Made by a program: the position numbers | Assembly (NCBI RefSeq): GCF_058153355.1 | Contig: NZ_CM177019.1 | Length of the DNA: 64,000 nt | Reading direction: 5' to 3' (one strand) | Shown: in pieces, positions 30,001 to 33,000 of the stretch | Position numbering within the stretch: the stretch's first letter is position 1 | How the letters are laid out: every line of letters starts with the position of its first letter

Positions 30001-33000
30001 GCCGGAAAAGACCCGCACAAGATGATGCGCATATGCGCCGCGCTGTACATGATTATGGCGAACCGCCACGACTGGCAGATGTTTATTGAGGCCACCGGAG
30101 ACGGCGGGAGCGGCAAGAGCACTTTCACGCACATAGCCAGCCTTCTGGCAGGGAAACAGAACACGGTAAGGCAGTATGACTTTCCGTGAGACAGATGCTG
30201 GCCAACGTGGGATATTTAACGCGGGTTAACATCGTTGTCAGAGCCGCATGGGTGAGCTGTTGCTACACCCCGGTATTTCCACCACGGAGGCCAGCATGAA
30301 CAACAATAACACATTGTACGTCGGGTTAGATGTTCACAAAGAATCGATTACTGTCGCTTATGCTATCAATTCAGAACCTGTTGAACTGATGGGTAAAATT
30401 GGCACATCACCTACTGATATTCAGAATCTTTGTAAACGTCTCAGGTCAAAGTCATCGCAGGTCAGTATCGTTTATGAAGCGGGGCCCTGTGGTTATGGAC
30501 TTTATCGTCGGCTGGTGAAATCCGGTTTTGACTGCATGGTCTGCGCCCCCTCACTTATCCCGAAAAAACCGGGGGAGCGGGTTAAAACCGATCGCCGTGA
30601 TGCCATCAGACTTGTGCGTTCACTGCGTGCAGGAGATCTTTCTGCTGTCTACGTACCCGGCATTGAAGATGAGGCATTCCGGGATTTGGCCCGGGCATGG
30701 GCATCTGCCCGCGATGATTTACGGCATGCAAGGCAACGTCTGAAATCGTTTCTTCTGGTTCATGGGGTCCATTATGTCGGGCGAGCAGATTGGGGCCCTG
30801 CACACCGACGCTGGCTCAGCAAATACTCATTCGAAAGTCCCTGGCGACAATTAGCTTTTGACGAACACCGTCGTACAATAGAAGACCGGCAGGCACAATG
30901 TGAACGGCTGGAATCCGCCCTGAAGGAGGCCGTTACCGAATGGAGGCTGTATCCGGTAGTAGAGGCGCTGCAAGCCATGCGAGGGATTCAGTTTATTACT
31001 GCGGTTGGATTAATTTCTGAACTGGGTGATCTGACCCGTTTTGAACATCCACGACAACTGATGTCATGGTTTGGTATCACGCCATCAGAATATTCATCGG
31101 GTGGAAGCAGACATCAGGGCAGCATTACCAAAGCCGGAAACAGCTATGCCAGAAAGCTATTGGTCGAGGCAGCGTGGAGTTACCGTCATCCGGCACGCAT
31201 CAGTCCGGCAATACAAAAAAGGCAGGAAAATTTACCCCGCCCCGTCATTGACAGAGCATGGGATGCTCAACTCAGGCTTTGTAAGAGGTATCGAAAACTT
31301 CAGGCCAAAGGAAAGAATGTCAATATTACAATTGTTGCTGTTGCACGTGAGCTGGCGGGTTTTATCTGGGATATGGGCCGAATAGCAATGTCTGTCGCAC
31401 AACAACCACAATGTCACAAATAAAAAATGAGAATAACCAGTTCCCTGAAGGCGACGTAGCCCGGTACAAGAGTAACCCACGTTAGCGCTTGGCGACGGCG
31501 GAACAAAGCTGATTCGCGACGTAAGAAAGTGGCAGGCTCATATGACGGACCTCTGTAATGCGGTATCCAACCCGCGAATATCAGCGTGATTCACCGTCGG
31601 ATTTACTGCTACGTCGCCCTCAGGGAATTAAACCTAAAAAGAAAATCGTCAAAATTAGAGATTCCGGTTTGACACGGAAAGTCATATCAGCGCTTGGCGA
31701 CGGCGGAACAAAGCTGATTCGCGACGTAAGAAAGTGGCAGGCTCATATGACGGACCTCTGTAATGCGGTATCCAACCCGCGAATATCAGCGTGATTCACC
31801 GTCGGATTTACTGCTACGTCGCCCTCAGGGAATTAAACCTAAAAAGAAAATCGTCAAAATTAGAGATTCCGGTTTGACACGGAAAGTCATATCAGCGCTT
31901 GGCGACGGCGGAACAAAGCTGATTCGCGACGTAAGAAAGTGGCAGGCTCATATGACGGACCTCTGTAATGCGGTATCCAACCCGCGAATATCAGCGTGAT
32001 TCACCGTCGGATTTACTGCTACGTCGCCCTCAGGGAATTAAACCTAAAAAGAAAATCGTCAAAATTAGAGATTCCGGTTTGACACGGAAAGTCATATCAG
32101 CGCTGAAATGACATCACTTGATGATGCTGGTGGACGTGCGCAGGTTGTCGGGAGTCGTCTTATCGTCCTGGCAGACCAGCCGAAATATACAGGCGAAGGA
32201 ACGGGCATCAAGAAAATCACGGGCGGCGACCCCGTGGAAATAAACCCGAAATATGAGAAGCGTTTTACGGCGGTAATCAGGGCGGTGGTGCTGGCAACCA
32301 ATAACAATCCGATGATATTCACCGAACGGGCCGGAGGTGTGGCACGTCGTCGCGTGATTTTCCGTTTCGACAATATCGTCAGTGAGGCCGAAAAAGACAG
32401 GGAGCTACCGGAAAAGATTGCGGCTGAAATCCCCGTTATTATCCGCCGCTTGCTGGCGAACTTTGCCGACCCTGAAAAGGCACGGGCTTTACTCATTGAA
32501 CAGCGTGACGGTGATGAAGCACTGGCAATAAAGCAACAGACGGATCCGGTTATTGAGTTTTGCCAGTTCCTGAATTTTCTGGAGGAAGCGCGCGGCCTGA
32601 TGATGGGCGGTGGTGGTGACTCTTCCAGGTACACGACCAGGAACAGCCTTTACCGAGTCTATCTGGCGTTTATGGCATACGCCGGAAGGAACAAGCCGCT
32701 AAATGTGGCTGAGTTCAGCAAAGCTATGAAACCCGCTGCGAAAGTTTACGGGCATGAATATATTACTCGGAAAGTTAATGGGGTTACGCAGACTAACGCA
32801 ATAACAACAGACGATTGCGATGCGTTTTTATAATTTTTTGCAAAAGCCCTCTACTTCCTCTACCTGAATGAAATAAACGCATATTATTCAATATGATAAG
32901 TTGGTAGAGGGCTATGTAGAAGGCTAATAAAAGCCCTCTACCTCTTCTACCTGATTTTATCAATTCCAGGTAGACAGGTAGAGGGCTGGTAGAAGGGGAT

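What the first reader, a model, noticed from the sequence alone, without database searches (positions are those of the whole stretch)
30173..32104. IS110/IS1111-like element inside the pri-rep gene carries a perfect 3x tandem array of a 205-bp 3' segment: possible multi-copy guide-RNA locus
Seen directly: the recombinase gene (30296-31423) is followed by three identical 205-bp units (31484-32104). Each unit holds a copy of the right subterminal repeat (CACGGAAAGTCATAT), inverted relative to the left one at 30173-30188. An 18-bp segment just after the recombinase stop (CCCTGAAGGCGACGTAGC, 31444-31461) is complementary to GCTACGTCGCCCTCAGGG inside every unit, so the transcript could form long-range stems. 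IS110-family recombinases are reported to be guided by an element-encoded non-coding bridge RNA, placed in the 3' flank in IS1111-type elements, and the unit size is in the range of such RNAs. A triplicated, sequence-identical copy of that region would give three right ends and possibly three RNA copies, which I do not recall being described. The element also inactivates the island's replication gene.
Basis: partly seen in the sequence, partly recalled or inferred. Interest (0 to 1): 0.75.

Follow-up and report, generated by a model that had tools for sequence, protein, structure and literature searches.

The report
ISSso6 with triplicated right end
A known RNA-guided insertion sequence (ISSso6) sits in a satellite-phage primase gene and carries three tandem copies of its last 205 bp; the extra copies are incomplete guide-RNA genes, and they most likely arose when the element's recombinase mistook the DNA that encodes its own guide for a target.

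Summary
Window 31484-32098 is 3 x 205 bp at 100% identity, at the 3' end of an IS110-family element (ISSso6) that interrupts a P4-type primase gene.

This structure is not the norm. About 190 ISSso6 copies in E. coli, the copies on 58 plasmid records and 57 metagenomic right ends almost all have one unit. That includes the same primase insertion in three other strains.

The 3' non-coding region encodes one roughly 193-nt bridge/seek-type RNA (31438-31630). Compensatory base changes support its structure, and two loop segments covary with the flanking target in 24 relatives.

The repeat unit starts inside the loop that encodes the right-target guide, so units 2 and 3 lack the first 46 nt of the RNA and do not fold. 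"Three guide RNAs" is therefore not supported.

Other right-end duplications exist, of 106, 205 and 339 bp. All end exactly at the element's terminal AG core. The 205- and 339-bp ones start at two of only three internal ACGTNAG sites that match the left-target guide. The 106-bp one starts in the donor-guide DNA, which copies the right end.

Best reading: RNA-guided self-targeting followed by unequal crossing-over, producing a by-product rather than an adaptation.

The parts
29149..30170 (+). 5' part of the interrupted P4-family primase gene; the left target half GTA-AG ends at 30170
   Evidence: ORF list. Joining it to 32101-32833 gives a 584-aa ORF that hits TIGR01613. Intact site seen in ERL03-1416.
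30171..32100 (+). ISSso6 variant: 1928 bp plus one AG core copy (32099-32100). The normal element is 1520 bp including one AG.
   Evidence: 99.8-100% identical to copies annotated 'IS110-like element ISSso6 family transposase'. Boundaries come from the empty site.
30174..30188 (+). Left subterminal inverted repeat GTATGACTTTCCGTG
   Evidence: 14 of 15 positions inverse to the right repeat; conserved in relatives.
30296..31423 (+). DEDD recombinase/transposase gene, 375 aa
   Evidence: NF033542 at 274 bits; Pfam PF01548 + PF02371.
31350..31351 (+). Site B: internal AG preceded by ACGTG, inside the transposase gene. It is the start of the 339-bp right-end duplication in the VL40 pINV copy and is not rearranged in this window.
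   Evidence: L002 junction CATATC-AG-CTGGCGGG; left-guide match 4 of 5.
31438..31630 (+). The only complete bridge/seek-type RNA gene (about 193 nt)
   Evidence: Alignment of 35 relatives; 47 pairs, 98.6% paired, 9 pairs with compensatory changes, 0 of 500 shuffles reach this. Fold z -4.9. No Rfam family.
31438..31460 (+). 5' strand of the closing helix, present once only; it pairs with 31608-31630
   Evidence: Helix 1 has 22 pairs, 5 of them with compensatory changes; coordinates.
31481..31491 (+). 5' side of the target-binding internal loop (GTTAGCGCTTG), the right-target guide. It contains site A (AG 31484-31485), where the 205-bp unit begins.
   Evidence: Its reverse complement matches the right flank at 106 of 168 positions across 24 lineages, against a permuted mean of 45.6 (0 of 10000 permutations reach it).
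31518..31528 (+). 3' side of the target-binding loop (GACGTAAGAAA), the left-target guide (ACGTA-AG)
   Evidence: Matches the left flank at 77 of 120 positions, against a permuted mean of 40.6 (0 of 10000).
31576..31595 (+). Donor-side guide patch GAATATCAGCGTGATTCACC. ATATC-AG-CGT copies the right end, the core and the first target bases. Site C (AG 31583-31584) lies here.
   Evidence: Alignment. Start point of the 106-bp duplications in L012 and L097 and of the ~108-bp one in L060.
31484..31688 (+). Repeat unit 1: the 3' three-quarters of the RNA gene, an A-rich spacer and right end 1
   Evidence: TRF; unit identity.
31689..31893 (+). Repeat unit 2: a 5'-truncated RNA gene copy (31689-31835) plus right end 2
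   Evidence: this region folds at z -0.13.
31894..32098 (+). Repeat unit 3: a 5'-truncated RNA gene copy (31894-32040) plus right end 3, the true junction with the primase gene
31669..31688 (+). Right end 1: a -35-like TTGACA overlapping the subterminal repeat CACGGAAAGTCATAT, then C. The same sequence recurs at 31874-31893 and 32079-32098.
   Evidence: Motif positions. Joined to the left end it reads TTGACA, 17 nt, CAGTAT. TTGACA is invariant in relatives.
32101..32833 (+). 3' part of the interrupted primase gene (right target half CGCTGAAATG...)

Best explanation
The element is ISSso6, an IS110-family insertion sequence with IS1111-like layout. It has one DEDD recombinase gene, followed by a single gene for a roughly 193-nt bridge/seek-type RNA, then a right end carrying half of a circle-junction promoter.

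The RNA has a target-binding internal loop. Its 5' side is complementary to the top strand of the core plus right target (ideal AG-CGCTAAC). Its 3' side is identical to the left target plus core (ACGTA-AG). The natural targets are GTA-AG-CG sites, mostly at the ends of IS66-family elements, and by chance one inside this primase gene.

The centre of the target (AAGCGCTT) is nearly palindromic. As a result, the DNA that encodes the right-target guide itself reads ACGTT-AG-CGCT, a 9-of-10 copy of the ideal target in direct orientation, 205 bp upstream of the right end.

Inferred steps:
1. The RNA-loaded recombinase joined a right end (RE-AG) to the right side of this internal pseudo-target. This could have happened by strand transfer between sister copies. 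Alternatively, a circle could have inserted into a resident copy, followed by homologous deletion. Either route creates the junction CATATC-AG-CGCTTGG and a 2 x 205-bp array.
2. Unequal homologous crossing-over between the identical units gave the third copy.

The extra units are by-products. Each adds a usable right end and a 5'-truncated, non-folding piece of the RNA gene, not a functional guide. Shown directly: the anatomy, the RNA structure, the guide assignment, the rarity of arrays and the recurrent breakpoints. Inferred: that the recombinase, rather than replication slippage, made the first junction.
For: Identity and normal structure:
-. About 190 places in 125 E. coli genomes, and the best match in each of the 52 plasmid records that cover the query, have one unit. 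Among the one-unit copies is the same primase insertion in VL40, VL7S7 and O121 201805972 (1571 bp against a 1981-bp query).

RNA gene:
- The non-coding region is 73-92% identical to Burkholderiales relatives whose elements are only 66-71% identical overall.
- The consensus fold has 9 covarying pairs, reached by 0 of 500 shuffles; versions with the 3' partners slid by 1-3 columns fall to 32-42% paired.
- Guide-target covariation was reached by 0 of 10000 permutations on both sides.

Recurrent right-end duplications, all ending at the terminal AG:
- 205 bp in this window (3 copies) and in pINV of CFSAN029787, RMDEC332, RMDEC364, FDAARGOS_944 and CP091385.1.
- 339 bp in VL40 pINV. This is the same IS copy, with the same flanks, as the CFSAN029787 205-bp case.
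- 106 bp in SCAID WND1 and in the FDAARGOS_943 chromosome, at different loci, and about 108 bp in a Paraburkholderia domus relative.

Breakpoints match the guide:
- Of 83 direct-orientation AG sites in the element, only 3 match the left guide at 4 or more of 5 positions. Two of these are breakpoints A and B (chance about 9e-4).
- Microhomology with the right-end junction is only 3-4 bp for B and for the pINV A case.

Precedents:
- An LD-RT to new-RT top-strand 'direct transfer' that produces exactly this kind of junction (bioRxiv 10.1101/2025.10.25.684509).
- Tandem amplification mediated between sister chromatids by ISPpu10 (bioRxiv 10.64898/2026.03.19.712850).
- Alternative ends, an AG core and minicircles in ISPpu9 (PMC12288879).
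Against: - No experiment links the recombinase to these junctions.
- Every junction also carries 3-10 bp of microhomology, so RecA-independent slippage is possible, especially for the 106-bp type (8-10 bp).
- The left-guide-coding DNA itself (ACGTA-AG at 31519-31525), the best left-half match, has not been seen as a breakpoint.
- The predicted nested intermediate (site A joined to a left end) was not found in 5426 genomes.
- The 205-bp arrays at the primase and pINV loci could share one origin, spread by transposition or gene conversion, rather than being independent events.
- Direction is not proven: orthologous single-unit copies could be contractions of an ancestral array.
- The breakpoint statistics are post hoc and rest on few events.
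- The copy number in this window (3) cannot be checked against reads.
Confidence: 0.6

Rival explanations
1. The array arose by recombinase-independent microhomology events. Replication slippage or template switching occurred between short repeats (AGCG(CT), AGC, ATATCAGCGT) that happen to lie at the right-end junction and inside the element. Unequal crossing-over then expanded it.
For: All junctions carry microhomology: 6 bp in the window, 4 bp in pINV type A, 3 bp in type B and 8-10 bp in type C. Perfectly identical units fit recent slippage. Arrays are rare: 0 of 57 metagenomic right ends.
Against: Three different duplications all end at the same 2-bp terminal core, which random breakpoints would not do. 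Sites A and B share ACGTNAG with the left-target guide, a feature that microhomology with CATATCAG does not require. 3-4 bp is weak microhomology for recurrent events at one spot.
Confidence: 0.25
2. One reading: the array is a functional multi-copy guide-RNA locus, giving three RNAs and three right ends that raise or diversify transposition.
For: Each unit carries the complete donor-side half of the RNA, the left-target guide and a right end. All three right ends are followed by AG-CGCT. Published work describes truncated target-loop-only RNAs taking part in strand transfer.
Against: Units lack the 5' 46 nt of the RNA, including the 5' strands of four helices and the first 3 nt of the right-target guide loop. 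The unit transcript shows no stable fold, z -0.13. There is no promoter-like site. Arrays are absent from nearly all copies and from orthologous insertions. One carrier copy has its recombinase gene destroyed by IS600.
Confidence: 0.08
3. The triplication is an assembly artefact: collapse or expansion of a short repeat at an IS end.
For: Perfect identity and a repeat shorter than many read lengths. The copy number cannot be checked here. One relative's array (L060) sits on a 1.7-kb short-read contig.
Against: The same RE-AG-CGCTTGG junction is present in five independently assembled complete plasmids. Other array types occur at precise biological breakpoints. The insertion length (1930 bp) leaves the flanks exactly as in the empty site.
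Confidence: 0.07

Closest known systems
ISSso6 (reference, single-unit form; IS110 family, Shigella and enteroinvasive E. coli)
   Same: 99.8-100% nucleotide identity over the whole element, the same ends and the same GTA-AG-CG target. The identical primase insertion occurs in VL40, VL7S7 and O121 201805972.
   Different: The window copy has two extra 205-bp copies of the 3' segment (1930 bp inserted, against 1520).
IS1111-type seekRNA elements ISEc11, ISKpn4 and ISPa11 (PMC11187229)
   Same: Subterminal inverted repeats. The RNA gene lies downstream of the recombinase gene. The segment that pairs with the target's top strand lies 5' of the segment that pairs with the bottom strand. The -35 half of a junction promoter sits in the right end.
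   Different: The recombinase is 375 aa (the paper gives 330-350 aa for IS1111-family proteins). No RNA data exist for ISSso6. No tandem right-end arrays are reported there.
IS621 bridge RNA (Durrant 2024 and Hiraizumi 2024, as summarised in PMC12288879 and from my own knowledge)
   Same: The guides are the two strands of an internal loop and read the two halves of the target around a 2-nt core. A second region mirrors the element's ends.
   Different: In IS621 the RNA lies upstream of the recombinase gene and the guide order is reversed. Here a long closing helix encloses both domains, and the right-donor guide could not be assigned with confidence.
ISPpu9 modular transposition (PMC12288879)
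   Same: AG core. Several alternative right ends in one locus give several circle types. There is a small RNA module 3' of the recombinase gene.
   Different: The ISPpu9 extra module (ssr9) has its own left-end-like and right-end-like boxes and moves alone. The ISSso6 unit has no left-end-like sequence and is a partial copy of the guide RNA gene.
CazIS110-1 'direct transfer' and ISPpu10 tandem amplification (bioRxiv 10.1101/2025.10.25.684509; 10.64898/2026.03.19.712850)
   Same: Right-end junctions are joined to the right half of a new target. Head-to-tail tandem arrays are explained by strand transfer between sister chromatids.
   Different: Those targets lie outside the element (120-230-kb amplicons, or separate targets tested in vitro and in vivo). 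Here the target lies inside the element's own guide gene, 205 bp from the end.

Membership tests
IS110 family (DEDD recombinase IS) | Recombinase with an N-terminal DEDD/RuvC-like domain and a C-terminal Transposase_20 domain | tested here: met
   NF033542 at 274 bits, cutoff 140. PF01548 at residues 9-153 and PF02371 at 223-297.
IS110 family (DEDD recombinase IS) | Sequence-specific insertion with a short core shared by target and element, and no long target duplication | tested here: met
   14 insertion sites all read GTA-AG | element | AG-(C/T)G (one copy has GG at the right core). The empty site has a single AG.
IS1111 subgroup | Subterminal inverted repeats | tested here: met
   15-bp repeats with 14 of 15 matching, set 3 and 1 nt in from the ends.
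IS1111 subgroup | Long non-coding region downstream of the recombinase gene | tested here: met
   265 bp 3' in the single-unit form, against 125 bp 5'.
IS1111 subgroup | Recombinase related over its full length to that of IS1111 (330-350 aa per PMC11187229) | not tested
   The protein is 375 aa. No IS1111 reference sequence was compared and no phylogeny was made.
Bridge/seek RNA-guided recombinase system | Conserved structured non-coding RNA encoded in the element | tested here: met
   35-sequence alignment, 47 pairs, 9 with compensatory changes, 0 of 500 shuffles reach this. z -4.9.
Bridge/seek RNA-guided recombinase system | Two guide segments in one internal loop that covary with the left and right halves of the target | tested here: met
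   77 of 120 and 106 of 168 matches, against permuted means of 40.6 and 45.6; 0 of 10000 permutations reach either.
Bridge/seek RNA-guided recombinase system | Donor-binding guides matching both element ends | tested here: inconclusive
   AUAUCAG at 31579-31585 equals the last 7 nt of the right end plus core and is near-invariant. Only a 4-5-nt match (CUGU to GCAG/ACAG) to the left end could be proposed.
Bridge/seek RNA-guided recombinase system | The RNA is made, binds the recombinase and is required for transposition | not testable with these tools
   No expression or binding data. Rfam has no model that hits.

The most novel reading that the evidence does not exclude
Guide-encoding DNA of bridge-RNA elements is an intrinsic self-target. 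The right-target guide gene mimics the target, and the donor guide gene mimics the right-end junction. On this reading, right-end tandem arrays such as this one are natural footprints of RNA-guided one-ended ('LD to new RT') strand transfer in vivo. The arrays would then feed back on the element by offering several right ends and surplus donor-loop fragments. If so, natural IS copies record the off-target rules of these recombinases, with left-guide positions -5 to -2 plus the core being sufficient.
Probability: 0.4. Interest if true: 0.65.

Novelty: new variant of a known kind. Interest (0 to 1): 0.55.

Why it matters
Bridge/seek-RNA recombinases are being developed as programmable genome-rearrangement tools, and their off-target rules and in vivo pathways (circle versus direct strand transfer) are still debated.

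These natural arrays give sequence-level junctions that look like one-ended transfers to partially matched sites. They suggest that the guide gene itself is a liability, a built-in pseudo-target. That matters both for how such elements evolve and for vector design, because a DNA cassette encoding a guide can become a substrate.

For genome annotation, the result shows that the triplication is a rare rearranged ISSso6, not a new RNA array. It also supplies a covariation-supported RNA model and guide assignment for the ISSso6 clade, which has no Rfam family.

Tried and rejected
- Rfam scan of 29900-32400 at E<=1 gave no family.
- I suspected that the 95%-identical relatives H33-H40, which match only up to window 31503, carried a swapped 3' RNA module. 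This was rejected: the copy is simply truncated there by another IS.
- A search for the predicted nested intermediate (site A joined to a left end) found 0 places covering the junction in 5426 genomes.
- A search for the junction predicted at the left-guide-coding site (RE-AG-AAAGTGGC) found none.
- The 100-nt junction queries for types B and C were uninformative, because two-piece matches to normal copies rank equally. They were replaced by 36-nt junction-specific queries. The concatenated query itself produced a spurious 28-mer hit to normal right ends (query positions 68-98), which I disregarded.
- A metagenome scan for the exact right end found 57 loci, none followed by internal sequence.
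- A full donor-binding loop could not be assigned. RNAalifold gives only two small invariant hairpins in the 3' half, and the GACGG/CCGTC helix I considered is invariant and therefore untestable.
- An independent promoter for the units was looked for and not found.
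Full report
**Observation**

Tandem Repeats Finder reports one array in the region: 31484-32104, period 205, 3.0 copies, 100% matches, no indels. 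The three units 31484-31688, 31689-31893 and 31894-32098 are identical. The ORF 30296-31423 (375 aa) is an IS110-family recombinase: NF033542 at 274 bits, and Pfam DEDD_Tnp_IS110 plus Transposase_20. The right subterminal repeat occurs three times, at 31673, 31878 and 32083. Its inverse lies at 30174-30188 with 14 of 15 positions matching. The description is therefore correct. The only correction is that the last six bases of the interval (AGCGCT, 32099-32104) are the core dinucleotide plus primase sequence, not repeat.

**Identity and boundaries**

The element is ISSso6. It is 99.8-100% identical to copies annotated as such in 125 of 5426 complete E. coli genomes and on Shigella and enteroinvasive E. 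coli plasmids.

Flanks of 14 copies all read GTA-AG | GCAGTATGAC...GTCATATC | AG-(C/T)G, except one copy with GG at the right core. Removing 30171-32100 restores an uninterrupted 584-aa P4-family primase (TIGR01613). The predicted empty site aacacggtaagcgctgaaatg exists as such in ERL03-1416, and a contiguous match is present in 571 genomes. The target is therefore GTA-AG-CG, with an AG core shared by target and element, as described for ISPpu9 (PMC12288879).

Most natural sites abut IS66-family genes. From memory, IS66-family terminal repeats begin GTAAGCG, so ISSso6 normally inserts five bases inside the ends of IS66-type elements. The primase site is a chance match.

**The triplication is not the normal structure**

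Typical copies span 1526-1536 bp in the records, which means one unit. The very same primase insertion in VL40, VL7S7 and O121 201805972 spans 1571 bp for the 1981-bp query, again one unit. In the plasmid collection, the best match in each of the 52 records that cover the query spans about 393 bp for an 805-bp query containing three units. None of 57 metagenomic right ends is followed by internal sequence.

**The RNA**

The search for related loci returned 77 relatives, almost all from Burkholderiales, at 64-88% protein identity. Their elements are only 66-71% identical to ISSso6 at the DNA level, but the 3' non-coding region is 73-92% identical.

An alignment of 35 distinct sequences (A1) gives a consensus fold with the following features:
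- A 22-pair closing helix, window 31438-31460 with 31608-31630.
- Nested helices leading to an internal loop, then an apical hairpin.
- Overall, 47 pairs, 98.6% of cells paired and 9 pairs with compensatory changes, reached by 0 of 500 shuffles. Versions with the 3' partners slid by 1-3 columns fall to 32-42% paired.

The window RNA folds at -79 kcal/mol, z -4.9. Rfam has no matching family.

**Guides**

The two sides of the internal loop are the variable patches of the alignment.
- The 3' side (31518-31528, GACGTAAGAAA) carries ACGTA-AG. Across 24 lineages with both flanks available, the corresponding five bases equal the five bases left of the insertion at 77 of 120 positions (permuted mean 40.6).
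- The reverse complement of the 5' side (31481-31491, GTTAGCGCTTG) equals the seven bases right of the core at 106 of 168 positions (permuted mean 45.6).
- No permutation out of 10000 reached either value.

The order is the one reported for IS1111-type seekRNAs: the segment pairing with the top strand lies 5' of the segment pairing with the bottom strand (PMC11187229).

A further near-invariant patch (31576-31595) contains ATATC-AG-CGT. That is the last bases of the right end, the core and the first target bases, as expected of a donor-side guide. A convincing guide for the left end could not be assigned.

Joining right and left ends gives TTGACA, 17 nt, CAGTAT, the usual circle-junction promoter arrangement. 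No promoter-like site lies within the non-coding region or the array.

**What the extra units contain**

The unit starts at 31484, the A of an AG inside the 5' guide loop. Units 2 and 3 therefore lack the first 46 nt of the RNA: the 5' strands of the closing helix and of three inner helices, and the first 3 nt of the right-target guide loop. A transcript of right end 1 plus the truncated copy folds no better than shuffled sequence, z -0.13. The locus thus has one complete RNA gene, two truncated copies and three right ends. All three right ends are followed by AG-CGCT and should be about equally usable.

**Other arrays and their breakpoints**

Looking at other copies revealed further right-end duplications.
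- Type A (205 bp, the same junction as the window), two copies: pINV plasmids of RMDEC332, RMDEC364, CFSAN029787, FDAARGOS_944 and CP091385.1.
- Type B (339 bp, starting inside the recombinase gene at window-equivalent 31350), two copies: VL40 pINV. This is the same IS copy, with the same left and right flanks, that carries type A in CFSAN029787.
- Type C (106 bp, starting at 31583): SCAID WND1 and the FDAARGOS_943 chromosome, at different loci. An equivalent duplication of about 108 bp occurs in a Paraburkholderia domus relative on a short contig.

Every array ends exactly at the terminal CATATC-AG.

I scored all 149 AG sites of the element, on both strands, against the target that its own guides specify (ACGTA-AG-CGCTAACG).
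- The top site is the template strand of the right-guide DNA.
- The best direct-orientation site is site A (ACGTT-AG-CGCT).
- Among 83 direct-orientation AG sites, only three match the left guide at 4 or more of 5 positions: site A, site B (ACGTG-AG) and the left-guide DNA itself.
- Two of two non-C breakpoints falling in that set has a chance of about 9e-4. This is a post hoc figure.
- Site C matches the donor guide: it shares ATATCAGCGT with the right-end junction by design.

**Mechanism**

The shared right boundary at the core, and the guide-like left halves of sites A and B, point to the recombinase rather than to random slippage. Microhomology with the right-end junction is only 3-4 bp for type B and for the pINV type A.

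The junction RE-AG-(right side of a new site) is what a 'direct transfer' of the right-end junction to a new target produces in vitro and in vivo for CazIS110-1 (bioRxiv 10.1101/2025.10.25.684509). Tandem head-to-tail arrays have been explained by strand transfer between sister chromatids for ISPpu10 (bioRxiv 10.64898/2026.03.19.712850). With the pseudo-target 205 bp upstream of the right end, the same event duplicates 205 bp.

An alternative route is insertion of a circle at site A of a resident copy, followed by homologous deletion between the two 1.3-kb left parts. Its intermediate was not found, but it would be unstable. The third unit is most simply explained by unequal crossing-over between two identical units.

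The reason site A exists is structural. The target centre AAGCGCTT is nearly palindromic, so the DNA that encodes the guide complementary to the target also resembles the target.

**Caveats**

- Slippage cannot be excluded, particularly for type C.
- Independent origin of the two type A loci is not proven.
- The best left-half site (the left-guide DNA) has not been seen as a breakpoint.
- The number of events is small.
- The copy number in this window cannot be verified without reads. However, the junction itself recurs in five independently assembled plasmids.

**Comparison and novelty**

The element is a known IS and belongs to the IS110 family. It has the IS1111-type layout, though its 375-aa recombinase is longer than the 330-350 aa quoted for IS1111 proteins, and subgroup membership by phylogeny was not tested. 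The RNA meets the structural and covariation criteria of a bridge/seek RNA; expression and binding are untested.

I found no description of right-end tandem arrays, or of breakpoints in guide-coding DNA, in the searched literature. The nearest reports are ISPpu9's alternative ends and ISPpu10's large tandem amplifications. I therefore rate it a new variant of a known kind. The triplication itself is a rare by-product. The interesting part is what its breakpoints say about self-targeting by these recombinases.

Noticed in passing
L063:3819-5359, L052:1470-2821, L024:298-3575, L045:~3800 (site equivalent to window 31583-31584): In Paraburkholderia relatives, a different IS110-family element is inserted exactly at the AG of site C inside the host element's RNA gene, with the AG duplicated. 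It has a 383-384-aa recombinase about 30% identical to ISSso6's, its own subterminal repeats CTATGAAGCG/CGCTCATAG and a TTGACA near its right end. The RNA gene of one IS thus appears to be the specific target of another IS.
   Followed up: partly
L043:2256-3682, L019:~3783, L023:~3781 (equivalent to window 31548-31549): A second, unrelated IS110-family element is inserted in the donor-side loop region of the host RNA gene in three Caballeronia loci. It has a 351-aa recombinase (NF033542 at 330 bits) and ends ATGAAATGAACGTCCCCC / GGGGGACGTTCATGTAG.
   Followed up: partly
L034:3678-3874 (alignment A1 columns 151-160): This relative's RNA gene reads CCCATAGAAG where the others read CGGATATCAG. 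It carries the right-end motif (CATAG-AAG) of the 383-aa intruder IS without the intruder, which may be a footprint or a recombination scar.
   Followed up: no
window 31424-31690 compared with L015 and L016: The non-coding RNA region is more conserved at the DNA level (85-90% to Caballeronia and Variovorax plasmids) than the recombinase gene (about 67-71% over the whole element). A megablast search from E. coli therefore hits Burkholderiales plasmids only in the RNA gene.
   Followed up: yes
L003 compared with L098 and L009 (pINV plasmids): In RMDEC332, the ISSso6 copy that carries the 205-bp array and an IS600 insertion has the left flank of one pINV ISSso6 locus (as in L009) and the right flank of another (as in L098 and L002). 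This implies homologous recombination between ISSso6 copies on the plasmid.
   Followed up: no
L011:1822-1830 and several relatives (L040, L024, L035...): The right-hand core copy is not always AG. It is GG in E. coli C311, and AA in several Burkholderiales lineages whose right-target guide also specifies AA while the left guide specifies AG. The two guides may read the core differently.
   Followed up: no
L017:1204-2539 (H33-H40, STEC strains): A 95.6%-identical relative of ISSso6 is fixed at one chromosomal site. It is frameshifted and truncated at the equivalent of window 31503 by another IS fragment.
   Followed up: partly
L001:1441-3019 compared with window 29149-30170: In VL40 the same island has lost most of the 5' part of the primase gene to an IS421 insertion or deletion next to fiu. 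The window retains the full 5' part, so the window's island is the less decayed version.
   Followed up: no
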